A stretch of 47,034 bases of DNA from Fonticula-like sp. SCN 57-25 (lineage: Eukaryota): positions 1-47,034 of the forward strand of contig MEDX01000017.1 in assembly GCA_001724245.1 (NCBI GenBank). The letters run 5' to 3'. The position numbers were made by a program, and so were the translations under genes. This document shows positions 31,555 through 47,034 of the stretch, one piece after another. Below the pieces are notes generated by a model. It was not told the origin of the DNA, searched no databases, and saw only the letters and a program-made list of their open reading frames with translations. Every line of letters starts with the position of its first letter. Position 1 is the first letter of the stretch.

Positions 31555-34500
31555 TTACGGCGTTGCAGCCGTCGCCTCCGCCGCCGGCGTCGTCGTCGTC
31601 GCCGCAGCGCTCTCCTTTTTAAAGTAGCTGCTGATGGCCGCCTTGCCGCTCGCCTTGTCCTGCTTTATCCTCTTTGTGGCCGGCGAAGCTTCCGCGTCGC
31701 CCGCCGCGCGCTTTGACGGCGTCTTTGCCTTGCTCGGCGACGACGGCGTCTTGACCTTGCTCGGCGACGACGGCGTCTTCGCCTTGGCCGACTTTGCCGC
31801 CGCCGTCTTTCCGGCGCTGCGCGGCGTCTCCGGCACGCTCTTCTTGGCCTTCTTCTTGGCGGGCGTCGCCGTGGCCGCGTCGTCCTCGGCGCTGAGCATC
31901 GAGTCGTCCCCGTCCGCCGCGCCGCCCTTTTTAAAGTGCGACAGTGTCGTCTGCTTGGTCTTGCGCAGACGAGCATAGATGCGCGCCAGCTTGGCCGCCG
32001 TAGTATTGTCCTTGTGCTCGGCAACGTACATCCACAGGCGGCGCGTCCACGCGTCGTCGCCCTTGGCAGCCGACGTCACGCACGCGCCAATCTTGAGCAG
32101 CGTCTCGCCAACCAGCTTGGCGTCGCTCAGCTGCGCAAAGTCGCTCGTCACGCTCTTGAGGTCGTCCCCAGCCAGCGCCCGCTCAGAGTCGGACAGCGGC
32201 GGCTCCGCGTCCCACTCGGCCTCGGCAATGTGCGAGCTCGACGACGCGGCGGCGGAGGAAGAGGAGGACGGCGCAGCGCCACCCGCCGCGCTCCCGCCCA
32301 CCTTTTCGCCCTGGAACGTCAGGCGAATGCTGCGGTCGCGGCGCAGCGCCTTGAGCAGGTCCTCGGCGCGCTTCACCACATGGCGCGCCTGCGGCAGCTT
32401 CTCGGCCACCGGGGCCGCCGTCGCGGCGGACGCATCGGAAGCCTCGGACGCCGGCGGCTCCTCCTTGACGTCAGCGGCAGCATCGCCGCCTTCGGTCGCG
32501 GTGGCCGAAGAAGGCGCGGCCTGCGCGGCCTGGGCCGCCGCGGCGTTCGTCGTCGGGAACAGCTTTCCCTTGAGCCCGAGCTCCTCGTCGTCAAAGATGG
32601 CGTTCCACGACCCAAAGCCGTACTTGTTGACGCCAACGAGGAGCATGCCGTCCTCCTTGGGCCCCCACGGGACGTTCCAGCCCGACACCGCCTTGACGGC
32701 GCCCGGCACACGGAAGGACGCAAACGGCACGCCGTTGAGCTTCTTGGCGAGCAGCGCCAGCTCGGCCAGGCGCGTGACGAGGCTCGTCGCGCTCACAGAC
32801 ACATTGTAAATCATCACTGTCGTGTCCTTTTCCTTGACAACCTTCTTGTCAGACGACGACGACGAAGGGGCCGCCGCCTTGGACGCCGTCTCAACGGCCT
32901 TGTGGCACGTGTTGACAATCTCGTCGATGAGCGCATTCACCTCGTCCTGGTCGCGCGTCTCGAGGCTCGCGTCGAGAATCACCTTTTCGCGCAGCGCTTC
33001 CGTCCAGCCATACTTGCGCACGGCCATCACAATGCGGCGAATAATGCGGTCCGACGTCAGCGGCTCCACCTTCTTAACCTTTTCGGGCTTTTCCTTGATC
33101 TCCTTTTCCTTGGACTTCTTCTCCTTGGACTTTTTGGTGGGCGCCAGGTCAAGGTCGTCCGCGCCGCTGTACTTTTCAACCGTCTTGCGCTTGCGCGGCT
33201 CGCTCAGCACCTGGTACACGTTCTGCATCTTTTCGTCCTGCTCCTCCTGCTCAACCTTGTCGCGCTGCTCCTTGGGGATGATCTTGTCCCACTCAAACGT
33301 CGCGGCCACCTTGAACGCATTCAGCAGCTCCGACGCCTCGCCCTCCTGCTCAGGGTCGCCCTCGTGCGTCTCGGCGCGCGCCAAAATCTCATCAAGGTCC
33401 AATTCGGGCGCGGCCTGCGATGACGCGCCCTCGGTCGTCCCAGCGGCCGCGGATGCATCGCCGCCGTCACCGTTGCCACTCGAGCCATTCGAAGTCGCCT
33501 CCTCGCTGGCCTTGAACAGCGCCTGGGCGCTAAAGGCGAGCACGCGCTGCAGCTCTTCCTTGTTGAGGCGGTTTTCGCTGCCCTTGTCCACCTTGGAGTT
33601 GCCCGACGTGTCCATGCGCTGGATCACAAGATGGTCGAGCACCATCTTGCGCTTGGCGCTCTCGATAATGTGCTCCTCCACGCTGTCCGTCGTCACAAAG
33701 CGGTAAATGTTGACGGCGTTCTTTTGACCAATGCGGTGGGCGCGCGCCTGCGCCTGCAGATCGTTCTGCGGGTTCCAGTCGCTGTCATACAGAATCACAG
33801 TGTCGGCCGTGGCGAGATTGATGCCGAGGCCACCAGCGCGCGTGCTCAAAAGGAAGCAAAAGTCATTCGAGCCTTCGGCGTTAAAGTGGTCCATGGCCTG
33901 GCGGCGCTGATCGCTCGACACGCTGCCGTCGAGGCGCTGGAACGTGTAGCCGCGCAGGCGCAGGTACTCGGCGAGGAGATCAAGCATGCGAACCATCTGC
34001 GAAAAGATGAGGACGCGGTGTCCGTCCTTTTTGAGGCGCTCCAGCAGCTTGTCGAGCAAAACAAGCTTGCCGCTGTTCGAGATGAGGAGATTCAGGATCG
34101 CGTCGCGGTTCTTGGCGCTCACGAGCTCGCTGTCATCCACGAGGTAAGGGTGGTTGCAGCACTTTTTCAGCTCGACGACGATATTGTGCAGCGTCGACTG
34201 GTTGCCCTTGGTACCCTTGTTCAGCGCAGCATAGTTGCGCGCCATAATCCACTGGGACATTTGCTGCTGCTTGGGCGACATGCCAACACGCAAAATACTA
34301 CAAAACCAATGATTAGCAACAAAAAACAAAAATTGTTCATCCACACGCACCGTTCCGTCTTTGACGGCAGCGACTTTTCAACGTCCTTTTTGATGCGGCG
34401 GAGAAGGTGCGGCCGCAGCTCCTCGTGGAGCTTTTCCAGGTGCCCTTCCTCCTGCAGGTCCTTGTAGGTCGCCTCAAACTCTTCGACGCTTCTAAACTTG

Positions 34501-36394
34501 TTTGGCATCAAGAACGAGAGGAGCGACCACAGCTCGCGCATGCTGTTTTGCAGCGGCGTGCCGGTGACAAGAAGGCGGTTGGCCGTGCTAAAGTCCTTGA
34601 GGACGTCGTGCAGCAGCGACTCTGAGTTTTTGAGGCGGTGCGCCTCGTCGACCACGAGCAGGGACCACTTGAGGCCGCGCAAAATGTCCGCGTCCTTGAG
34701 GACAATCTCAAACGTCGTCAAAAGGACGTTGAAGCGCGGCTGGCGCGTGTTCCCCTTGGTGCCGTAAAACTCGTAATCGCGGAGCGTCTCGCGCGACTCG
34801 CGGGAGCCAATGTACATGATCATGTTGAGGTCAGGCGCCCACCGCTTAAACTCGTTCGCCCAGGCGTTGATGGTGGAGAGCGGCACGACGACGAGGTACG
34901 GGCCGAAAATCTTGTGCGTGTGCACCAAGTAAGAGATAAAACTAACGCTCTGGCACGTCTTTCCAAGACCCATCTCGTCGGCGAGGATCACGTTGCGGTT
35001 AAACATCCACGAGTAGGCGAGCCAGTTGAGGCCCTCGAGCTGGTAGTCGCGCAGCGTGCCGCCCACGAGGTACGACGGCTGTTCCATGAGCTTCGTCACC
35101 TTTGAGCGCTGCGTGGTGATAGAGGCAGAGTGAGCGGGAAGCATCGCGCTGTTCTGGCGAGCGAGGAAATCGTCAATCTCCTTTTGGAAATCGCCCTGGA
35201 TCAACGACTCATTCTCCCACGTCAGCTGGTCATACGGGACGCCGCGCCACTTGCAGCAGTACTGCGTGTCGCCCGTCTCGTCGTCGATGCGAACCGCCAC
35301 AACGCGTTCCACCTTGGTGTGTTCCTCGAGGATCTCGCGCTGCATCTCGCGCTCGATATCCAGGCCTTCCAGCTCCTCGCGCGTCAAGTGAGGACGTATC
35401 CGGTCCGCCTCGGCAAGCTTCTTGATGTAATTCTCGAGCTTCTTAAAGCCCTTGATACCCGCGAGCGATTCCTTGGTCTCCCACGTATTGTGCATGTGCG
35501 ATTTGTTGTTCCATTTGATCAAGTAGACGTGCTTGTCATCTTCCACCTTGTCGTCGAGGACGCGGTCGATCGACTCGCCCTCCTCCTCCTCGGCAGCGCC
35601 GTACGACCAGTTCTGAATCTCGTCGTCCTCGTCCTCTTCGTCGTCGCTCTGCAAACATTGGGTTAGCCAACGAATGGCGCCGACCATAAGATATGTCGCG
35701 TACATCTTCGCTGGGCTGCTCCTCGGCATAGCTCTTGCGACCGCTCGCCTGGCGCGACGATCGCCTCGCGTCGTCCGCTGCGGTACATTGTCAGTCACCC
35801 TAGCGTTAATTAACTATGCAAGCGCGCACTCCATGCCATCTTGCTCGAGTGGCGGCCGCGCGGGACCCCCTCACCATCGTACTCGTCGTCGCTGTCGCCG
35901 CCGTGCACGATGCGACTCCCGCTCTCGGACGAGCCGCCCCGACTCGACTTTGAGGCGGGCTTGCGCTTGTTGCTCGACGTAGACTTTGACACTGGCGCGG
36001 CGGCGGGCTTGCGCGCGCGCGGCCTTGCGGGCGGCGAGTCCGGCTCAAAGTCATCTTCGTCGTCGCTCTTTTCATTGTAGCCCTTGGCAGGCCGCCGGGG
36101 GCGAACCGACCGGCGCACAAACGAGCTGTCATTCACGTCGTCTTCGTCGGACAGTTCCGGCACCGAATCTTCCGCTGCCGCCTTTGATTGGCGGTAGGCA
36201 AACTGAGCGAGCGATGTCGGGCGCGCAGGCTTGGCGCTCGATGACGAGGATGACGACTTGTTCGATGCGCTATAGCTGTCGCTCTCGCCGTCGGACGACG
36301 CGCTGCCGGCCGACTGCTCGGCGCTGGAACCCACAAACTCGTCCACCTCGGACTCGGAGCTGCTCGACTCGTCCAATTCAGACGAGCTGCTCAT
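31555..36394 (-). CDS. CHD1: CHD1-type chromodomain helicase DNA-binding chromatin remodeler, multi-exon
   Basis: Double chromodomain (YLIKWNNKSHMHNTWE; YCCKWRGVPYDQLTWE). SNF2 motifs ILADEMGLGKT, VDEAHRLKN, ELKKCCNHPYL, LSTRAGGLGINLATADTV and DSDWNPQNDLQAQARAHRIGQ. SLIDE-like WGPKEDGMLLVGVNKYGFGSW. Intron at 34298-34350, with two more near 35650-35870. Confidence 0.95.
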
Positions 36395-39769: not shown

Positions 39770-42700
39770 TTACAGGTCGCCTCGCCCGCTGACCTGCGCG
39801 TTGAGGTGGTCTGCGTGCGCTGTGCAGAACGTGTCCTCGAGCGAGTGAAGCCTGTACTCGCCCTCCTTTGTCGCGATAAAGCGCGTGCGCGGCCCGGCCA
39901 CGCTGTTGATATGGTAGAGCTCCGTGGTCGGTTCGTGGAACGCGTCGCGCATGATTGTAATGTTGAACGGCCCGGTGCCGCGCAGAATGTCGATTTCGAT
40001 AGGTACCGGGTTGTCCGGGCGCGCGTAGATCTCGCTCACGCGGCCGCCGTTCAGCGTAGCGTGCGGCCGGGCGCGAACAGTCACCGTCACGTCCACATCC
40101 CGCGAGCAGTGCTTGGTCGAAACCCGCGTGATGTGCATGACGCCATCCTGCTTCGCCTCAAGGAAAAGGTGGGCGCGCGTCGAACGACGGCTGCGCGCCT
40201 CACCGCCAAACGAATACGACATTTCCCACGGACCATCTGCGAAAGCACAGAAAGAGAACAAAAACAACGTGTTAGCACCAACGTAGCACATGTGCAAGCT
40301 GCGTACCGCTCGCGGGACCAAAGAAGATCTCGATCGGATCGCCAACGCACACGTGGCCCGGTCCCTGCACGGTGATTGTCGGCACGTCGCCGACCGACAC
40401 CATGACGCTCGTCTCCGTCTCTGTCCAGCAGCCCGTCGCGTCGACAATCTTTTCAATGACGATGCTAAAGACGCCCGTCCGGTCTAGCTCGTTGACGACG
40501 AGCTCACCGTCGTGGAAGCCCGCGGTCGCAGCGGCCTTGGAGCCGGTCGGCAGCTCGAGCGTGCGCGTGAATGTCCGCGCGTCGTCTGCGGACCGGATCG
40601 AGTACGTGATGACAAACGGCGCGACGCCAAAGACACGCAGCGGAATGCGCGCCTCCTGCCCGCGGCAGTGCTGCATCTCGATCCCGACGGTGCCTGGCGG
40701 GGTGCCCGCGTCTGCCGGGCGGCCCTTGCCAGCCGCCGGCTTGCGCAGCGCAAGCTCCACCGTCGGGTTGCGGTGCACGAGCACCGACGCCGTCGCCTTG
40801 GCGGTCGCGGGAACATTGACGACGCCATGGTACCGGTCCGAGACCGACTCGATGACGTACACAAAGCTGCCGTCGACGAGCGGCGTGTCAACAAGCGCAA
40901 CGTCATCCGCTTCGGCCACCGAAAAGACGTCCAGGGAGCGGCGCTCGACAGCCGGGCCGGCTGCGTTGGCGGACGCGCCGCCGGGCTGCGATTTCCGCGG
41001 CAACTTGACAGAGTAGCCAACCTTCCACGGCGCCTCGCCGCCCGAAAGCGCGAGCGTCGCAATCCTCGCCGGGCGGCCGACGCAAGCGTTGGCGGGCCCA
41101 GCCTCAAACAGGCGCAGGGCGGGCGGCGTGACAAGGCTGACCATGCACTCGGCCGGCGGCTGCACGCTGCCCGGGCAGTGCGCGTCGCGCACGCCCAGCA
41201 GCCTGTACGCGCCCGACTCTGTGAGCGTGACGAGCGACTGGTCGGTGCTGTAGATGGTCTTTTGCGTGGGGGCGGCGGCGTCGGCGCCGGGGACATGGAG
41301 CGACACCTGGAATGGTGCGCGGCCGCCGACGAGGCGAATCGGGAGGCTGGCGCCGTACGACGTCGTGAGGATCGGCGCGCCGGGCGAGCCCGACACATGG
41401 CCCGACGGCTCGCACTCAAAGCTCGCGGTGACCGGGTCGACGATGATGGTCCGCGTGTCGCTCAGCGTGCGCGCGCACTCGTTGCCGTCGCGCACCGACA
41501 GCAGCGAGATCGTGTAGCGGCCGCGCGCCGGAATGTGCGAGTAAATGTCGAGCGTCGTGTTGTCGCCCGTGATGTTTGCGACCATGTGCTTGCTGTCGCG
41601 CACAGAGTACGTAAGGGAAAACGGCGCAGCGCCCTCGAGCTCGACGCCCAGCGAAAGCGGCTCGTCCAGGCAGAGGTACTGCGTCGCCGCGCCCGCGCCA
41701 AAGTAGGCGTACGCGGGCTGGTGTACGAGTACGCTCAGGCTCACGTCAATCGGGACCTGGTCATAGTACGTGTCCGTGAGCGACACAAACGACACTGTCG
41801 CAATGCCGCCTCCGAGGCCCGGGCGCGGCGTCAGCAGCACCGAGTACGGCGAGTGCGGCACCACAATCTGGCTGGCCGGCTGCGCCGACGCCGCGCGGTC
41901 CGATGACCACTGCACAGAGACGCGCCACGGGGCAGTGCCCGTCAGCTCGAGCGTCACGTTCAGCGGGCTGTCAGGGCACATGGACGAAGGAAGCGCGCCG
42001 ACAAGCGCGAGTGTCGGCGACGGGGCGTGAACGGCCACAAACGACGGCGGAGGAAGCACCGTGCCCTCGCAGACAGCTTCAACAACATGTAAGCAAACAA
42101 GCAAAACAAAAAAAGAAACGCACAATCAGCGACAGAAATGAGCGTGTAGGTTCCCGCCTCGTTCACCTTGATGTACGCGCTGGTGGGGAGCTCGAACGCG
42201 TGGCGCACAAGCGGGCGCAGCGGCGTCGAGTACGACACCGTGAACGGCCCGCGGCCGGTAAGCTCGAGAGGGACGTCGCGCTCGGACTGCGCGGCGAGCA
42301 CGACGCTCTGGAGCGGGCCTCGGACGGTGGGGCGCGGCAAGAGGTGCAACCTGAACGTGGGCGTGCGGTCCGAGCCAAAGTACGAGACGGTCATATTGCG
42401 CGCGTCGGTGACACTCACAACGCGCCACTCGTACACCCCGTTGACAAAGGCGTCGCTCAGCGGCATCCGCCAGTAGTGGTACGAGAGGTAGCCAATCTCG
42501 GCCGGGAGCGACAGCGCGGACACGTCCACAAAGTCGCGCACCTTGGTCTCGATGCGGCGCGTCGCCGGCTCGCCGTTAAAGTAGCGATCAATGGAGATGG
42601 AAAACGGCGCTTCGCCCGACAGGCGGAGCAGCGTGGAGGTGGCGTCGCCGACGCACTTTGTCATCACCGAGCGGTACACAAAGTGCGCAGTCGGGGGGCG

Positions 42701-43556
42701 AGCAGGGAGCGGAAGCGGCGCGTACGGGAAGAGGACAACCGTCACAGTCGAGTTGGACACAAAACCGTCGTGGTCAATGCGGTCATTCACCGACACAAGC
42801 GAGTAAATGCCCGTCGACGTTGCGTTCAGCGCAAAGGGGCGCTCGTGGAATGAAACCTCAAACTCGGTCGGCGTCCGCACGCGAGCGTACTCTTCAATCT
42901 GAAAGTGCGATGCGGGAAGAGGGTCCACCCGGTAGCGGAGACGCCAAGGAGCAACACCGTCAAGGCGCATATAGAGCAGCGAATTGACGGCGATCACCTG
43001 CGATGCAACGGGGTACGGGCAGTGGCGGTGAACATTGAGGCGCTCGCAAAACGTCGCAGCGGCGGCAGCATGGTGAAGCCGAACAATGCCAGGGAGTGAC
43101 GAGCCGCTCGCCGACTGGGGGCCAACCACTGCACAAACCAAGCGTCAGCTACACTCTTTCTCTTGCGCGGCGATCACGCGCACCTTCAACAAGCTCGGGG
43201 CCGATGCCGCCCGCGACCGTTCCGTTGCCGCTAAGGCCGCCCATAAGCGGGGACCGCAGGCCGTTGAATACAATACCATTAAAAAAAAACAAGCAAATAA
43301 GCAGGAGAACGGCGCCCGTATTGCTCAGCCGCAACCGCTGGCGCTCCTGCCGATGCATGATGGACCGCGACGCCGACGGTTGCGGCGACGGCTCCGCCTT
43401 GATCATCGTCGGCGTCCGCGTTTGGATGACAAATAGGCACACCGCATCCACTATAACCGACGCCAGAAATAGTAATGTCGACGTCCCTACTACGGACGAA
43501 AGAGCCAGCTTGAACGCCTGCAGCACGGCAAACGCCTGCCACATGCCGTTGTCCAT
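39770..43556 (-). CDS. POM152: Pom152-like transmembrane-ring nucleoporin (N-terminal TM helices, about 8-9 Ig-like lumenal repeats), multi-exon
   Basis: Hydrophobic N-terminal helices, then repeats such as LSGEAPFSISI, LTGRGPFTVSY..GTYTLISVAD, LTGTAPWRVSV, LEGAAPFSLTY..YTISLLSVRDGNEC, GAYRLLGVRDAHCPGSV, CVGDPIE..GPWEMSY and terminal EGEYRLHSLEDTFC. Confidence 0.8.
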
Positions 43557-43745
43557 GCTGGGTCGCGCGCCGCAGCAGCTTACCGCCACAAGAATCTAGT
43601 TTGCAGTTTGCAATTTGCAATCCAATTTGCGAGCAGCTAGCGAGTGGAGGGATGAAAGCTGAATGAACGAACGCATGTGTATTATGGGCCCTAGTATATT
43701 TTGCTCAAAGAAAGCTAGTTTTTTATTGTCATAATTGCGACAGAA

Positions 43746-46148
43746 TTAGAGTGCCGCGCGGATCGCGTCGACGTCAATGTTGTGAATCTTGTATGCGTCG
43801 ATAATATCAGAGCTCTGCCCGAATGTGGTGACGCCGAGCGAGCGCGTCGCGTTGCCCTGCACGGATCCGAGCCAGGCGAGCGCCGCCGGGTGGCCGTCCT
43901 GCACCGTCACAATCTTTGCCCCCTGCGGCACCGCCGCGAGCAGGGACGCAATATGCGAATCGGACGAGAACGCGGCCGCCTTGTGCCAGTCGCTGTACAG
44001 GCGCGCGTGCGACGTGACCGCGAGGAGCGCAACGTCGTCGCGGCCCTCGACGGCCTTGCTCGCCTCTGGCGCGACCGTTCCGGCGTAAGCAAGAACCGTC
44101 TTTGTCTTCTTGGACGGGGCGACGCGCCAGTAGGCGCCCTTGATGATGTCGTCGCGGAGCTCGGTGGTCATCTCGCGCTGCGGCTGGTCAAGCGGGCGCG
44201 TGGAGAGGCGCAGGTACACGCTACCGCCCTTCTCCTCCTGCATGTAGACGAATGCGTGGCGCGTAATGACGGCGAGCTCGTCGGCAAACGCGGGCTCGTA
44301 GCTGACGAGGCCCGGCTGCGAAAGGCCGATGAGCGGCGTGTTAATGGACTGGTGCGCGCCACCCTCTGGCGCGAGGCTGACGCCCGAGGGCGTTGCCACA
44401 AGCAGCATGCGCGCGTCCATGTAGCACGCGTAGTTGAGCGCATCGAGACCGCGCGCAATGAACGGGTCATACAGCGTGCCGATGGGGAGCAGGCGGCGGC
44501 CAAACACCGAGCTGCTCAGACCGAGCGCCGCAAGGATCAAAAACAGGTTGTTTTCGGCGATGCCCAGCTCAATGTGCTGCCCCTTGGGCGTCACGTCCCA
44601 CTTTTGCATCGAGGGCATCTTGCTCGCGCGGAACACGTCGGGGCGGTCGTTGAGGCCAAACACGCCGCGCTGGTTCACCCACCCGCCCAGGTTGGTCGAC
44701 GTGGCCACGTCGGGCGCCGTTGTGACAATGCGCGAGGCCAGAGGAAGCGTCGAGCGGCCGAGCTCCATCATGAGCTTGCCAAACGCCTCCTGCGTCGACA
44801 TCGTGGGGCTCGGCGGCAGCGACAGCACGTCGGGCACCGGCAGCGGCGCCTCGGTCAGCCGCCGCGAGCCAGGGCCGCCGCGCGCAAACGGAACCTTGCT
44901 GAGGAAGGCCTCGAGCTTTGCGCGCGGCGTCGAGAGACCAACAAAGCGGTCCCACTCGGAGCCAACGGGGACCTTGTGCGACGCCTGCAGCGCCGTCATC
45001 TGCGGTGTGTTGAGAAGGCCGCTGTGGTTGTCGCGGTGGCCCGCGAGCGGAAGGCCGTATCCCTTGACAGTGTAGGTGATGAAGCACGTCGGCGTCGACT
45101 CCTTGCCGGCCTCCTCAAAGGCCTCCAGAAGCGTCTCCATGCAGTGGCCGCCAAGGTTGGTCATAAGGCGGAAGAGCGCGTCGTCGTCGTGTGCGGCGAC
45201 AATGGCGAGTGCGTCGGCGTCATCGGCGAGATCGCGCTCCAGCGCGGCACGGAAGGCCTTGCCGCCCGAAAAGGTAAGCACAGAGTAGCGCACGTTGTCA
45301 ATCGCGTTCATCCAGCGGCGCAGCGACCGGCCACCAGGACGGTCAAACGCGGCCTGAAGCAGCTTGCCGTACTTTACCGTCAGTACGCGGAAGCCATTTG
45401 ACCGGAACAGGCGGTCAATCTGACGGAAAGAATTGTCGCCGACCACATTGTCGAGCGACTGGCGGTTGTAGTCAATAATCCACCAGTTATTGCGGACCTT
45501 GTGCTTCCAGCTCTCCAGCAGCACTTCATAGACATTACCTTCGTCCAGCTCGGCATCGCCAACAATGGCGATCATGCGGCCCGGACGGGCGGCATCCTCG
45601 CCGGTCCCCGCGGGAACCTGAGGCGCAAAGTCGCCGCCCTTGAGGGCGAGGTAGTCCTGCGTGAGGGCCGCAAAAGTGGTCACCGCGGCTCCAAGGCCCA
45701 CCGAACCGGTCGAAAAGTCAACATCGTCCTTGTCCTTGGTGCGCGACGGGTACGCCTGGACGCCTCCAAGAGAGCGGAAACGCTCAAGCTGATCGAGCGA
45801 CTGATGCCCAAGCATGTACTGGATCGCATGAAAGATCGGGCTCGCGTGAGGCTTCACTGCAACGCGGTCATGCGGCCGGAGCGCAGAAAAGTAGAGCGCA
45901 GTCAAAATGGTCGCCATGCTCGAGCTCGATGCCTGGTGGCCGCCAACCTTGATACCGTCGCGCTTGGGGCGAAGGTTGTTGGCATTGTGAATCATGTACG
46001 AGGAGAGCCACAAAACCTTGCTCTCCAGGTCACGCAGCGTGTCCAGGTCGCCAGCACCAGGCGCGCTCGCAAGCCACCGAAGGCCGACCGCAGGGCGCGC
46101 GGCCACCGCTGCCACGCCCGCGCGGTTCACACGACCCAGCCGCAACAT
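43746..46148 (-). CDS. Bacterial-type single-chain (AceE-like, transketolase-fold) pyruvate/2-oxoacid dehydrogenase E1 with predicted mitochondrial presequence; intronless
   Basis: Motifs KVLWLSSYMIHNAN..KVGGHQASS, KPHASP, AYPSR, DFSTGSVGLG, the ThDP-binding motif GDAELDEG..DYNRQSLD, HIELGIAENN, GTLYDPF and EGGAHQS. N-terminus MLRLGRVNRAGVAAVAARPAVGLRWLAS is Arg-rich and lacks acidic residues. Confidence 0.88.
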   Translation of the reverse strand: MLRLGRVNRAGVAAVAARPAVGLRWLASAPGAGDLDTLRDLESKVLWLSSYMIHNANNLRPKRDGIKVGGHQASSSSMATILTALYFSALRPHDRVAVKPHASPIFHAIQYMLGHQSLDQLERFRSLGGVQAYPSRTKDKDDVDFSTGSVGLGAAVTTFAALTQDYLALKGGDFAPQVPAGTGEDAARPGRMIAIVGDAELDEGNVYEVLLESWKHKVRNNWWIIDYNRQSLDNVVGDNSFRQIDRLFRSNGFRVLTVKYGKLLQAAFDRPGGRSLRRWMNAIDNVRYSVLTFSGGKAFRAALERDLADDADALAIVAAHDDDALFRLMTNLGGHCMETLLEAFEEAGKESTPTCFITYTVKGYGLPLAGHRDNHSGLLNTPQMTALQASHKVPVGSEWDRFVGLSTPRAKLEAFLSKVPFARGGPGSRRLTEAPLPVPDVLSLPPSPTMSTQEAFGKLMMELGRSTLPLASRIVTTAPDVATSTNLGGWVNQRGVFGLNDRPDVFRASKMPSMQKWDVTPKGQHIELGIAENNLFLILAALGLSSSVFGRRLLPIGTLYDPFIARGLDALNYACYMDARMLLVATPSGVSLAPEGGAHQSINTPLIGLSQPGLVSYEPAFADELAVITRHAFVYMQEEKGGSVYLRLSTRPLDQPQREMTTELRDDIIKGAYWRVAPSKKTKTVLAYAGTVAPEASKAVEGRDDVALLAVTSHARLYSDWHKAAAFSSDSHIASLLAAVPQGAKIVTVQDGHPAALAWLGSVQGNATRSLGVTTFGQSSDIIDAYKIHNIDVDAIRAAL

Positions 46149-46290
46149 TACAACAGGCTGCAAACCGTTGTGCAGTTTGCACTGAAATATATCCCTGTCA
46201 ATTGTCGATAGATGAGCGTGTCAATTTGTAGGCAATTTCTAATCAGCGTTTTTGAACGTGAGCCGCGCTCTGGCAACTGCTGCTGCTGCC

Positions 46291-47034
46291 ATGTCGGGCT
46301 TTACGTTCAACATGCCGGCTGCCGGAGGCGCATCGCCGTTCGGAGGCCAGGGTCAGACGACTGGCACCGCACAGACGGGCGGCTTTGGCACCGGCTTGGC
46401 TGGATTCGGCGGCTTTGGCTCGGCGCCTGCCGCTGGAGCCGCGCCGGCTGCCGGTGCTGCTCCCGCCGCCGGCGGATTCGGCGCTGCTCCTGCTGCAGGA
46501 GGATTTGGTGGGTTTGGTGCCGCTTCTACTGCGGCTAGGCCACCCGCTTCTACCGGCTTTGGGGCGGCTGCTGGTGCATTCGGTGCTCCTGCCGCTGCTC
46601 CTGCCGCTGGTGCGTTCGGTGCTCCTGCCGCTGCTCCTGCTGCTGGTGCTTTTGGCGCGCCTGCTGCTGGGGCTGCTCCTGCTGCCGGAGCTTTCGGTTT
46701 CGGTGCTGCACCTGCCGCTGGTGCTTCTGCTCCTGCCGCTGGTGCTCCTGCTGCGGGCGGATTTGGTTTTGGTGCCGCTGCTCCCGCTGCTGGCGCTGCT
46801 CCTGCTTTTGGCGCTGCTGCGCCCGCCGCTAGCGCTGCTCCTGCCTTCGGGGCTGCTGCTCCCGCTGCTGGTGCTGCCCCCGCCTTTGGCGCGCCCGCTG
46901 CGGGCACCGCTGCTCCTGCTGCGGGCGGATTCGGTTTCGGTGCTGCCGCGCCCGCTGCTGGCGCTGCTCCTGCCTTTGGTGCTGCTGCTCCCGCTGCTGG
47001 CGCTGCTCCTGCCTTTGGTGCTGCTGCTCCCGCT
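46291..47034 (+). CDS. FG-repeat nucleoporin N-terminus (Nsp1/Nup62- or Nup54/58-like), runs off the right edge
   Basis: ATG at 46291 gives MSGFTFNMPAAGGASPFGGQGQTTGTAQTGGFGTGLAGFGGFGSAPAAG..., open to the window end with many GFG/AFG repeats. It is absent from the ORF track because it has no stop within the window. Confidence 0.8.
   Translation, partial: MSGFTFNMPAAGGASPFGGQGQTTGTAQTGGFGTGLAGFGGFGSAPAAGAAPAAGAAPAAGGFGAAPAAGGFGGFGAASTAARPPASTGFGAAAGAFGAPAAAPAAGAFGAPAAAPAAGAFGAPAAGAAPAAGAFGFGAAPAAGASAPAAGAPAAGGFGFGAAAPAAGAAPAFGAAAPAASAAPAFGAAAPAAGAAPAFGAPAAGTAAPAAGGFGFGAAAPAAGAAPAFGAAAPAAGAAPAFGAAAPA
46420..47034 (+). repeat. Coding tandem repeats (about 30-40 bp units) encoding FG(A)AAPAAGAAPA
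   Basis: Repeated gctgctcctgcctttggtgctgctgctcccgctgctggc-like units. Confidence 0.85.

What the first reader, a model, noticed from the sequence alone, without database searches (positions are those of the whole stretch)
43746..46148. Bacterial single-chain AceE-type E1 enzyme with a mitochondrial-like presequence in a eukaryotic nuclear genome
Seen: an intronless ORF of about 800 aa with all motifs of the homodimeric transketolase-fold PDH E1 family (GGHQASS, FSTGSVGLG, GDAELDEG, EGGAHQS). An Arg/Ala-rich, acid-free extension of about 30 aa ending LRW-LAS precedes it, and it sits between two nuclear-pore genes. Established: canonical mitochondrial PDH E1 is an alpha2beta2 heterotetramer, while single-chain AceE is bacterial. 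Inference: a horizontally acquired or endosymbiont-retained gene retargeted to mitochondria, giving an alternative PDH or other ThDP-dependent 2-oxoacid activity. Host-like GC3 and eukaryotic neighbours 140-190 bp away argue against contamination.
Basis: partly seen in the sequence, partly recalled or inferred. Interest (0 to 1): 0.72.

Follow-up and report, generated by a model that had tools for sequence, protein, structure and literature searches.

The report
Bacterial-type E1-like enzyme gene in eukaryote
A microbial eukaryote carries an intact, host-adapted gene of bacterial ancestry for a thiamine-dependent 2-oxo-acid enzyme with an organelle-targeting leader; it is a cousin of the bacterial pyruvate dehydrogenase E1 rather than that enzyme itself, and several other protists carry the same gene.

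Summary
An uninterrupted 800-codon ORF lies on the minus strand (43746-46148), 142 bp and 189 bp from eukaryotic neighbours, with all four quoted motifs and a 33-residue acid-free, Arg/Ala-rich leader.

- It is not a bona fide AceE. It scores 157 bits against the 860-bit cut-off, is 26% identical to a true AceE, and lacks AceE's first ~70 residues. It belongs to a separate ~780-aa, mainly alphaproteobacterial family. That family coexists with true AceE in one genome and sits beside no E2 gene in 0 of 5 genomes.
- It is not a lone transfer. It groups with at least 11 other eukaryote-like sequences (two EukProt, one MMETSP), all with basic, acid-poor leaders. The clade has SH-aLRT 95-97 and nests among proteobacteria (98).
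- Contamination is excluded by host-like codon usage, independent contigs bridging both junctions, and 10 of 10 listed strain variants being synonymous.
- All 21 mapped active-site positions are invariant, and four differ from E. coli E1p.

Substrate, E2 partner, localisation and expression remain untested. Single-chain E1 in eukaryotic mitochondria is already published for dinoflagellates and diplonemids. Interest is moderate.

The parts
43746..46148 (-). Intronless CDS of 800 codons plus the TAA stop (43746-43748): an AceE-like ThDP-dependent E1-type enzyme
   Evidence: ORF; family; homologues at 57-61% identity; 10 of 10 listed strain variants synonymous
46050..46148 (-). Codons 1-33: acid-free, Arg/Ala-rich N-terminal leader, a putative mitochondrial presequence. 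R23-W-L25|A26-S27 fits an R-3 type processing motif (motif recalled, not computed)
   Evidence: 5 R, 0 D/E, 9 A; bacterial homologues have no equivalent; leader statistics, eukaryotic clade against bacteria
45279..46046 (-). Residues ~35-290: ThDP diphosphate-binding (PP / Transketolase_N-type) domain, with H71, S74, H101 and Y133
   Evidence: PF00456, residues 97-262; residue mapping
45465..45560 (-). Residues 197-228: ThDP-Mg motif GDAELDEG...(X)...DYN (D198, N228)
44205..44801 (-). Residues ~450-648: pyrimidine-binding / PDH_E1_M middle domain, with E532 (cofactor-activating Glu of the GIAE motif), Y560, F563, R566, E595 and H599
   Evidence: PF17831 residues 450-645; PF02779 residues 498-648, below cut-off
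43749..44171 (-). Residues ~660-800: C-terminal transketolase-C-like domain
   Evidence: TIGR00232 match to residues 517-797; Atlas structural alignment to residue 800
46149..46290 (.). 142-bp divergent intergenic region shared with the FG-repeat ORF. It contains GCAAACTGCA at 46171-46180, 23 bp upstream of the ATG
   Evidence: X2 contig 46057-46351 bridges it
43557..43745 (.). 189-bp AT-rich spacer (3' end of this gene and 5' region of the POM152-like gene). It contains two overlapping copies of GCAAAYTGCA at 43602-43618
   Evidence: X4 contig 43300-43917 and X6 contigs 43405-43829 bridge it

Best explanation
This is a nuclear gene of an unidentified GC-rich, intron-poor microbial eukaryote. 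It encodes an organelle-targeted (most likely mitochondrial), catalytically intact, single-chain ThDP/Mg-dependent E1-type 2-oxo-acid enzyme.

It belongs to a distinct ~780-aa family that is paralogous to the homodimeric pyruvate dehydrogenase E1 (AceE) and is found mainly in Alphaproteobacteria. Within that family it sits in a monophyletic eukaryotic clade. That clade arose by one old transfer from a proteobacterium and then acquired N-terminal targeting leaders.

Inferred mechanism, by homology: after import and leader removal near residue 25, the protein dimerises, as every solved member of this fold does. It binds ThDP-Mg through GDAE...N228, with E532 activating the cofactor, and decarboxylates a 2-oxo acid to a hydroxyalkyl-ThDP intermediate.

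My split for the next step:
- About 45%: the acyl group passes to the lipoyl arm of an E2 encoded elsewhere (a resident mitochondrial PDH, OGDH or BCKDH E2), without the stable N-terminal docking that AceE uses.
- About 35%: a stand-alone decarboxylase or carboligase that releases an aldehyde or acyloin.
- About 20%: a true pyruvate-specific PDH E1 replacement.

Shown here: identity, family, clade, genomic integration, purifying selection, conserved active site, leader composition. Inferred: dimer, import, cleavage site, substrate, acceptor.
For: Family: best solved relative is E. coli E1 (2e-29). TIGR00759 matches profile positions 69-769. Full-length homologues at 57-61% identity are bacterial proteins of 765-849 aa named 'transketolase' or 'PDH E1 component'. 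The Atlas structural neighbours have TM 0.87-0.94 and are bacterial.

Distinct from AceE: 157.4 bits against the 859.9 cut-off. Identity to a true AceE is 26.1%, aligning residues 33-673 to AceE 74-714. Azospirillum genome G001 holds both a true AceE (1485.8 bits) and a family member (174.9 bits), while 4 of 5 genomes have the family but no AceE above cut-off. The true AceE abuts an E2 gene, whereas 0 of 5 family members do.

Active site: 21 of 21 mapped positions are invariant in 8 of 8 full-length eukaryotic and 51 of 51 close bacterial members; 17 match E. coli E1p and 4 differ in a fixed way.

Eukaryotic clade: 8 full-length rows form a clade with SH-aLRT 96 (C20-PMSF) and 97 and 95 (LG+G4), nested in a 19-row proteobacterial group at 98 each time. 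With fragments added, all 12 rows lie on one side of a branch. Members include EukProt Picozoa SAG31, a second EukProt protein and an MMETSP transcript.

Leader: 10 of 12 clade leaders have >=3 R/K and no D/E in the first 20 residues, against 1 of 107 bacterial leaders of >=20 aa. That one is a cluster-mate of a EukProt protein.

Integration: RSCU r = 0.96 against the neighbours, whose own controls span 0.85-0.96. Contigs from other samples bridge both junctions. 10 of 10 listed X4 variants in the CDS are synonymous, as are 12 of 12 in the neighbouring exon. A host upstream motif is shared with the neighbour gene.
Against: No targeting predictor could be run, and composition alone cannot separate mitochondrial from plastid leaders. 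The amphipathicity figure (muH 0.5 over 11 residues) has no control. No RNA evidence exists: none of the listed run holders is RNA. The host genome is not held, so PDHA, PDHB and E2 content are unknown.

The donor position is unstable. One tree with fragments makes all 51 bacteria a clade (99) with the eukaryotes outside it. Bootstraps were never obtained, so all support values are SH-aLRT from short searches.

That the other clade members are eukaryotic rests on source labels and leaders, not on their genomic context: the metagenome scan returned only uninterrupted, bacteria-like loci.

The absence of the E2-docking N-terminus and of E2 neighbours argues against lipoyl coupling. The invariant N374-H375 loop argues for it, but H375 is offset by two columns from E. 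coli H407 in the pairwise alignment. The bacterial neighbourhood is only weakly conserved (at most 12 of 49 loci), and my ORF picker mis-called antisense ORFs in GC-rich loci. The roles of the E. coli residues are recalled from memory, not taken from a call.
Confidence: 0.65

Rival explanations
1. It is a functional pyruvate dehydrogenase E1. It replaces or supplements the alpha2beta2 E1 and works on the host's E2p/E3, as proposed for AceE in dinoflagellates and Diplonema.
For: Its closest solved relative is E. coli E1p. 17 of 21 mapped E1p active-site residues are retained, including the H106, H142, E571 and H640 equivalents. There is published precedent for AceE-type E1 in eukaryotic mitochondria (passages in PMC3879968 and PMC12699882).
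Against: It fails the AceE equivalog cut-off by about 700 bits. It lacks the ~70 N-terminal residues of AceE, which in E. coli bind E2 (recalled). Four pocket-lining positions differ in a fixed way. Bacteria that own the family also have other PDH E1 systems, and the family is never next to an E2. Curated AceE paralogues with other substrates exist (TIGR03186 'AKGDH_not_PDH', listed).
Confidence: 0.2
2. The leader is a plastid transit peptide, or dual-targeting, and the enzyme works in a plastid rather than in mitochondria.
For: Basic, acid-poor, Ala/Ser-rich leaders also describe plastid transit peptides of many algae (established knowledge). The Atlas places the window's CHD1 exon nearest to green-lineage clusters, which is a lead only. 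Some clade members come from marine plankton sources.
Against: The leader is short (about 25-33 aa) and Arg-rich, with an R-x-L|A-S site typical of mitochondrial processing (sequence; motif recalled). The DNA turns up in bioreactor, wastewater, soil, compost and 'fungus' metagenomes. The host lineage is unresolved, and nothing plastid-related is in the window.
Confidence: 0.12
3. The gene descends from the mitochondrial endosymbiont (endosymbiotic gene transfer) and was lost in most eukaryotes, rather than being a later horizontal transfer.
For: The bacterial family is overwhelmingly alphaproteobacterial. In the 73-row tree all 51 bacteria form a clade (99) with the eukaryotes outside it.
Against: With full-length rows, three trees nest the clade inside one 19-row subgroup (98), next to a betaproteobacterium and marine Rhodospirillales-type sequences. 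The distribution among eukaryotes appears very patchy: only about a dozen eukaryote-like sequences surfaced in searches of billions of proteins.
Confidence: 0.1
4. It is a lone, recent transfer private to this genome, which is the reading the first reader's text implies.
For: No database protein exceeds about 69% identity, even over fragments, and the protein's 90% cluster has a single member.
Against: It forms a clade with at least 11 other leader-bearing eukaryote-like sequences at 53-69% identity. Codon usage is fully ameliorated.
Confidence: 0.03
5. It is bacterial contamination or a chimeric assembly joining a bacterial gene to eukaryotic DNA.
For: The best full-length hits are bacterial and the gene has no intron. 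The DNA was recovered from metagenomes.
Against: Contigs from three other runs (X2, X4, X6) bridge both junctions with 0-2 differences. RSCU r is 0.96 against the neighbours, compared with 0.70-0.86 for bacterial homologues against this gene. A leader is present that bacteria lack. An upstream motif is shared with the neighbour gene.
Confidence: 0.02

Closest known systems
E. coli pyruvate dehydrogenase E1 (AceE; PDB 1l8a; NCBIfam TIGR00759)
   Same: Single-chain transketolase-fold E1 with collinear PP, PYR and C-terminal domains. It has the ThDP-Mg motif, and equivalents of H106, S109, H142, Y177, D230, E232, N260, Q262, K392, N404, E571, Y599, F602, R606, E636 and H640 are retained.
   Different: About 26% identity to a true AceE. 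It scores 157 bits against the 860-bit cut-off. There is no counterpart of the first ~70 residues. There are fixed differences at Q140 (K), V192 (G), M194 (V) and N258 (D). The bacterial members are not next to aceF.
AceE-type E1 reported in dinoflagellates (PMC3879968) and in Diplonema (PMC12699882)
   Same: A single-chain E1 of prokaryotic type, nuclear-encoded and assigned to mitochondria of protists. It is proposed to work with E2 and E3 of other complexes.
   Different: Whether these belong to this clade could not be tested, because no sequences were to hand. The dinoflagellate gene is described as sister to actinobacteria and the Diplonema one as 'archaeal type' (passages read). The present clade nests among proteobacteria. 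No dinoflagellate- or diplonemid-labelled sequence appeared among the 120 best hits of the two clade-profile searches.
Uncharacterised ~780-aa bacterial 'transketolase / PDH E1 component' family (Thalassospira, Bradyrhizobium, Azospirillum, Allostella and others)
   Same: 57-61% identity over the full length, the same length once the leader is removed, and all 21 mapped active-site positions identical.
   Different: The window protein has a basic, acid-free leader, eukaryotic codon usage and eukaryotic neighbours.
AceE paralogues with other substrates (NCBIfam TIGR03186 'AKGDH_not_PDH')
   Same: This is precedent that AceE-like single-chain E1s act on 2-oxo acids other than pyruvate. It is the second-best NCBIfam hit (133.6 bits).
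   Different: The score is far below its 1408-bit cut-off, so this is not that family.
Canonical mitochondrial PDH E1 (alpha2beta2) and transketolase/DXS
   Same: Same ThDP superfamily and the same first half-reaction.
   Different: PDH E1 is split into two chains. Transketolase and DXS models score far lower here (86 bits or less).

Membership tests
AceE, homodimeric PDH E1 (TIGR00759 equivalog) | Score at or above the curated equivalog cut-off | tested here: not met
   157.4 bits against the 859.9 cut-off. A true AceE scores 1485.8 in the same kind of search.
AceE, homodimeric PDH E1 (TIGR00759 equivalog) | ThDP-Mg binding motif and cofactor-activating Glu | tested here: met
   G197-D198-A-E...N228, and E532 in GIAE. 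These are invariant in 59 of 59 clade and close family members.
AceE, homodimeric PDH E1 (TIGR00759 equivalog) | E1p active-site residue set (E. coli numbering; roles recalled) | tested here: inconclusive
   17 of 21 mapped positions are identical to E. coli. Four pocket positions differ in a fixed way. H375 lies two alignment columns from H407.
AceE, homodimeric PDH E1 (TIGR00759 equivalog) | N-terminal segment (~first 55-70 residues) that docks on E2 (role recalled) | tested here: not met
   The alignment to a true AceE starts at AceE residue 74, and to E. coli E1 at residue 73. The HMM match starts at profile position 69.
AceE, homodimeric PDH E1 (TIGR00759 equivalog) | Gene next to aceF (E2) in bacteria | tested here: not met
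   The true AceE of G001 abuts an E2 gene. 0 of 5 members of the ~780-aa family have an E2 nearby. None of the 10 recurrent neighbour families scanned is an E2 or E3.
AceE, homodimeric PDH E1 (TIGR00759 equivalog) | Homodimer; pyruvate decarboxylation and reductive acetylation of lipoyl-E2 | not testable with these tools
   Two copies (1600 residues) exceed the 1000-residue limit of the complex predictor. Enzymology is needed.
~780-aa AceE-like bacterial family | Full-length collinear homology, family length and family-invariant residues | tested here: met
   57-61% identity over 94-98% of the query; alignment A1; 21 of 21 positions shared.
Eukaryotic organelle-targeted clade of that family | Monophyly with other eukaryote-derived sequences | tested here: met
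   SH-aLRT 96, 97 and 95 for 8 full-length rows. With fragments, 12 rows lie on one side of a branch at support 63, and 5 rows at 85 in FastTree. No bootstraps were obtained.
Eukaryotic organelle-targeted clade of that family | N-terminal leader absent from bacterial members | tested here: met
   10 of 12 against 1 of 107 by a simple charge rule. Median net charge is +5 against -1. Leader length is 28-116 aa against a median of 20.
Mitochondrial presequence | Prediction by a trained predictor (TargetP, MitoFates), or experimental import | not testable with these tools
   No such predictor is available here. Only composition and an R-x-L|A-S site read from the sequence support it.
Nuclear eukaryotic gene (not contamination) | Physical linkage to eukaryotic genes in independent data, and host-like codon usage | tested here: met
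   Bridging contigs: X4 43300-43917, X6 43405-43829, X2 46057-46351. RSCU r = 0.96. The neighbours are CHD1, POM152-like, CAMTA-like, NBAS and others.

The most novel reading that the evidence does not exclude
A previously undescribed mitochondrial 2-oxo-acid enzyme family is scattered across distantly related protists (Picozoa-labelled, MMETSP and several unlabelled lineages). It is a single-chain E1-like ThDP enzyme that has lost the E2-docking arm. It would therefore either serve several resident E2 cores promiscuously or work without any E2, producing an aldehyde or acyloin. That would add a branch of mitochondrial carbon or amino-acid metabolism not present in textbook models, and it would also define the unknown function of a very large alphaproteobacterial family.
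Probability: 0.25. Interest if true: 0.65.

Novelty: new variant of a known kind. Interest (0 to 1): 0.45.

Why it matters
Prokaryote-derived single-chain E1 enzymes in protist mitochondria are known, but only as presumed PDH E1 replacements. This gene shows that a different, uncharacterised AceE paralogue was also captured by eukaryotes, fitted with a targeting leader, and kept under purifying selection in several lineages. The Atlas cluster for this family has 6625 members, all labelled bacterial.

Automatic annotation calls all of these proteins 'pyruvate dehydrogenase E1 component' or 'transketolase'. That label would mislead metabolic reconstructions of protists and of Alphaproteobacteria.

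A defined assay on one recombinant member would assign a function to the whole family. It would also show whether an E1 without the E2-docking arm can still feed lipoyl-dependent complexes.

Tried and rejected
- **Host genome:** not held, so PDHA, PDHB and E2 content could not be checked.
- **Genome scan with the single protein:** found nothing. The alignment-based rescan worked.
- **Metagenome scan for eukaryotic contigs of clade members:** the 80 best loci are all uninterrupted full-length matches at 54-59% identity, so it gave no information on introns or neighbours of the other eukaryotic copies.
- **RNA evidence:** no RNA holder was listed among the 21 runs. Expression is therefore untested; this is not evidence of silence.
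- **Uncovered stretches:** parts of the gene without contig cover in X2, X4, X5 and X6 are low-coverage gaps and carry no meaning.
- **Joints:** the joints in X5, X2 and X4 have short sides of 20-25 letters in metagenome contigs. I disregarded them as probably foreign or repeat-derived.
- **First FastTree:** it included rows where my ORF picker had taken antisense ORFs from GC-rich loci, giving long branches. Those rows were replaced by translations of the matched coordinates.
- **Bootstraps:** the PMSF 'careful' search was unfinished after 744 s, and my own IQ-TREE UFBoot run timed out.
- **Host lineage:** the Atlas hint of green-lineage affinity for CHD1 is a lead only. POM152-like, CAMTA-like and NBAS genes do not resolve it.
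- **Phosphoketolase, transketolase, DXS:** considered and rejected. There were no XFP Pfam hits and only weak transketolase and DXS scores.
- **Literature:** eight searches found no paper describing this eukaryotic clade or characterising the ~780-aa family. PMC7052976 had 0 occurrences of the search terms. Supplementary trees of PMC3879968 (its fig. S5D) could not be seen and may bear on how this clade relates to the dinoflagellate aceE.
Full report
**1. Observation**

The window holds an uninterrupted ORF on the minus strand. It runs 43746-46163 from a TTG, and the first ATG at 46148 gives 800 residues. The first 33 residues contain 5 Arg, 9 Ala and no Asp/Glu.

Reading the flanks directly:
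- On the plus strand, an ORF beginning MSGFTFN... starts at 46291, 142 bp from the ATG.
- The TAA stop at 43746-43748 is followed by a 189-bp AT-rich spacer, then the ATG (43556) of the next minus-strand gene.

That downstream gene is POM152-like (Pfam 102.7 and 61.1 bits). The FG-repeat ORF has no Pfam hit and is nucleoporin-like only by composition.

The rest of the window is unmistakably eukaryotic. It holds CHD1 (apparently interrupted by a short AT-rich intron near 34.2 kb), an NBAS/Sec39-like gene, a CG-1/TIG CAMTA-like gene, a cofilin-domain protein, an RBR ligase, a PH-domain protein and a RasGAP.

**2. What family it is**

Pfam sees PDH_E1_M (37 bits) and Transketolase_N (33 bits). 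The best solved relative is E. coli E1, 1l8a, at E = 2e-29, aligning residues 33-701 to chain residues 73-743.

However, the NCBIfam AceE equivalog model scores only 157.4 bits against a cut-off of 859.9. Identity to a bona fide AceE is 26.1%, with residues 33-673 aligning to AceE 74-714. AceE's first ~70 residues therefore have no counterpart.

The real relatives are bacterial proteins of 765-849 aa at 57-61% identity over the whole length, named 'transketolase', 'PDH E1 component' or 'DXP-synthase N-terminal domain protein' by their sources. An exhaustive representative search found 961 cluster representatives at E <= 1e-30. The Atlas puts the protein next to a 6625-member cluster that is 100% bacterial, with structural TM 0.94.

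Of 600 pattern matches in one-genome-per-species contigs, 483 encode a relative. The 80 best are almost all Alphaproteobacteria: Bradyrhizobium, Mesorhizobium, Azospirillum, Bosea, Xanthobacter, Rhodospirillales and others.

**3. The family is a paralogue of AceE, not AceE**

I searched five genomes with the AceE model. Azospirillum (G001) has both a true AceE (1485.8 bits) and a family member (174.9 bits). The other four have the family (125-201 bits) but no AceE above the cut-off.

The true AceE lies directly beside an E2 gene (G001 C2:399406-400089 against 400773-403412). None of the five family members has an E2 on the same contig within 300 kb.

Among the 49 of 80 loci with full flanks, the most frequent neighbour families were:
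- an Lrp/AsnC regulator (12 of 49);
- a branched-chain-type ABC ATPase (12 of 49);
- an enoyl-CoA hydratase and an SDR (6 of 49 each);
- an aldehyde dehydrogenase (5 of 49).

None of the 10 neighbour families scanned is an E2 or E3. A caveat applies: my simple ORF picker sometimes took antisense ORFs in these GC-rich loci, so these counts are rough.

**4. Active site**

Using the printed alignment to E. coli E1, I mapped 21 positions and counted them in a 72-row alignment. All 21 are invariant in 8 of 8 full-length eukaryotic clade members and 51 of 51 close bacterial members.

Seventeen equal the E. coli residue: H71=H106, S74=S109, H101=H142, Y133=Y177, D198=D230, E200=E232, N228=N260, Q230=Q262, K362=K392, N374=N404, E532=E571, Y560=Y599, F563=F602, R566=R606, E595=E636 and H599=H640. 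The seventeenth is the invariant H375, which sits two columns from H407 in the mobile loop.

Four differ in a fixed way: K99 for Q140, G148 for V192, V150 for M194 and D226 for N258.

The functional roles of the E. coli residues are recalled from the E1p literature, not taken from a call. My reading is that the ThDP chemistry is intact while the substrate pocket is family-specific.

**5. It is not a lone transfer**

Several hits carried long N-terminal extensions. Profile searches built from these pulled out more. Source labels show one from a Picozoa single-cell genome in EukProt, a second EukProt protein, and an MMETSP transcript. The rest come from unlabelled metagenome or run assemblies.

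Trees, rooted on the Azospirillum AceE or on distant subfamilies:
- **FastTree, 168 rows:** 5 eukaryote-like rows form a clade at support 85. This run also held faulty rows.
- **IQ-TREE LG+G4, 73 rows including fragments:** all 12 eukaryote-like rows lie on one side of a branch (support 63), and all 51 close bacteria form a clade (99).
- **LG+C20+F+G4 (PMSF), 44 rows, fragments dropped:** 8 eukaryotic rows form a clade at 96, inside a 19-row group at 98 with marine Rhodospirillales-type sequences (Thalassospira, Kiloniella, Aestuariispira), Robiginitomaculum and the betaproteobacterium Parachitinimonas.
- **LG+G4 on the same 44 rows, and on 41 rows without the longest outgroups:** 97 and 95 for the clade, and 98 and 98 for the 19-row group.

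The rows dropped for the 44-row sets were the four fragments (P0126, P0158, P0195, P0202) and 25 of the 51 bacterial rows, to save time.

Eukaryote monophyly is therefore consistent across analyses. Nesting within one proteobacterial subgroup holds in 3 of 4 ML trees. All support values are SH-aLRT from short searches, because bootstraps did not finish.

**6. The leader**

I took everything upstream of the conserved core, anchored on the KVGGHQ motif. The 12 clade members have leaders of 28-116 residues with a median net charge of +5. The 211 bacterial full-length sequences have a median leader of 20 residues and a median net charge of -1.

The rule 'at least 3 R/K and no D/E in the first 20 residues' is met by 10 of 12 clade members. 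It is met by 1 of 107 bacterial leaders of >=20 aa, and that one is a cluster-mate of the EukProt protein.

In the window protein, R23-W-L25|A26-S27 fits an R-3 processing site (motif recalled). No targeting predictor was available, and composition cannot exclude a plastid transit peptide if the host turns out to be an alga.

**7. Integration in the host genome**

- Relative synonymous codon usage correlates at r = 0.96 with the pooled neighbours. The neighbours' own leave-one-out values are 0.85-0.96. Bacterial homologues correlate at 0.70-0.86 with this gene.
- The stretch occurs in 20 DNA runs from 17 studies, all metagenomes. One of them may be the source.
- Contigs from other samples bridge both junctions. 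X4 43300-43917 (618 bp, 2 differences) and the tiled X6 contigs 43405-43829 (0 differences) span the POM152-like first exon, the spacer and the 3' end of the gene. X2 46057-46351 (0 differences) spans the 5' end, the intergenic region and the FG-repeat ORF. X2 is from the same study as the possible source; X4 and X6 are not.
- X4 carries a diverged strain. All 10 of its variants listed inside the CDS are synonymous third-position changes, as are 12 of 12 in the neighbouring exon. One X6 variant is A302T. Eighteen further variants were not shown by the tool.
- The decamer GCAAAYTGCA occurs 6 times in the window against 0.44 expected (0 of 100 shuffles reach 6). One copy is 23 bp upstream of this gene's ATG, and two are about 50 bp upstream of the POM152-like ATG.

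Contamination or a chimeric assembly is effectively excluded.

**8. What is known**

The following come from passages read in each paper:
- Dinoflagellates are reported to have lost PDHA, PDHB and DLAT and to carry a horizontally acquired aceE that is 'sister to actinobacteria' (PMC3879968).
- Diplonema is said to lack a conventional PDH and to employ an 'archaeal type' AceE, probably with E2 of BCKDH or OGDH (PMC12699882). An earlier paper on Diplonema states that it is not known whether its PDH is functional (PMC8611851).
- Euglena has all four conventional PDH subunits (PMC7403612).

So the premise that single-chain E1 is purely bacterial is outdated. Whether those genes belong to the present clade could not be tested. 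No sequence with such a label appeared among the 120 best hits of either clade-profile search, and the reported affinities differ, so I think they are separate acquisitions. That is inference.

Eight literature searches found no description of this eukaryotic clade and no characterised member of the ~780-aa family. Supplementary files, including the aceE tree of PMC3879968, could not be read.

**9. Verdict**

The gene is real, eukaryotic, selected and of bacterial ancestry, with an organelle-type leader. It is an AceE-like paralogue in a small, unstudied eukaryotic clade. It is not a bona fide PDH E1 and not a private transfer.

The most likely chemistry is ThDP-dependent decarboxylation of a 2-oxo acid. 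The weak bacterial context hints at an amino-acid-derived substrate. The acceptor is open: an E2 lipoyl arm without stable docking, or none at all.

It is a new variant of a known kind, of moderate interest.

Noticed in passing
window 5637, 28553, 30846, 43602-43618, 46171: The decamer GCAAAYTGCA occurs 6 times against 0.44 expected (0 of 100 shuffles reach 6). Three copies lie 23-60 bp upstream of two start codons. It is a candidate core-promoter or 5'-UTR element of the host.
   Followed up: partly
window 46291-47034 (+): The FG-repeat ORF has GC3 of 0.42, against 0.73-0.88 in every other gene, and RSCU r of 0.36. Five long ORFs overlap here in different frames and on both strands. The FG frame has the plausible MSGFTFN start, but the frame is not independently verified and there is no Pfam hit.
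   Followed up: partly
window 40272-43556 (-): The POM152-like gene is spread over at least three ORF pieces (40272-41981, 41960-43141, 43149-43556), implying short introns or frame changes. The first piece encodes hydrophobic, TM-like segments.
   Followed up: no
window ~34200-34290 (-): CHD1 is split between ORFs 34221-35729 and 31555-34281. The junction region is AT-rich with CTAAT and TAG/CAG elements, consistent with one short spliceosomal intron.
   Followed up: partly
proteins P0259 (5392 aa), P0236 (5710 aa), P0257 (1428 aa): The AceE-like module occurs inside giant proteins with signal-peptide-like N-termini. In P0259 it is a full-length match at residues 1298-2102, at 35% identity. 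P0257 shows only transketolase and E1 domains by Pfam, leaving about 500 N-terminal residues unassigned.
   Followed up: partly
protein P0243 (676 aa): A short-chain dehydrogenase domain is fused upstream of the N-terminal half of an AceE-like protein. This may be a real fusion or a gene-calling read-through.
   Followed up: no
locus L012 (MAG labelled Vicinamibacteria) against L045 (Bradyrhizobium): The family member in a MAG labelled Acidobacteriota is nearly identical to the Bradyrhizobium copy (end branches 0.07-0.09, sister at support 100). This suggests a binning error or a very recent transfer.
   Followed up: no
run X4 laid on window 41000-47034: An aquatic metagenome holds a diverged strain or sister species of the host. 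Every one of its listed differences that I checked in two genes is synonymous (22 of 22).
   Followed up: yes
proteins P0158, P0271-P0274, P0195: Predicted proteins of the closest partial relatives all end within a few residues of the same point of the alignment and then run into unrelated sequence. This is as expected if gene callers read into an intron. Their contigs could not be fetched.
   Followed up: no
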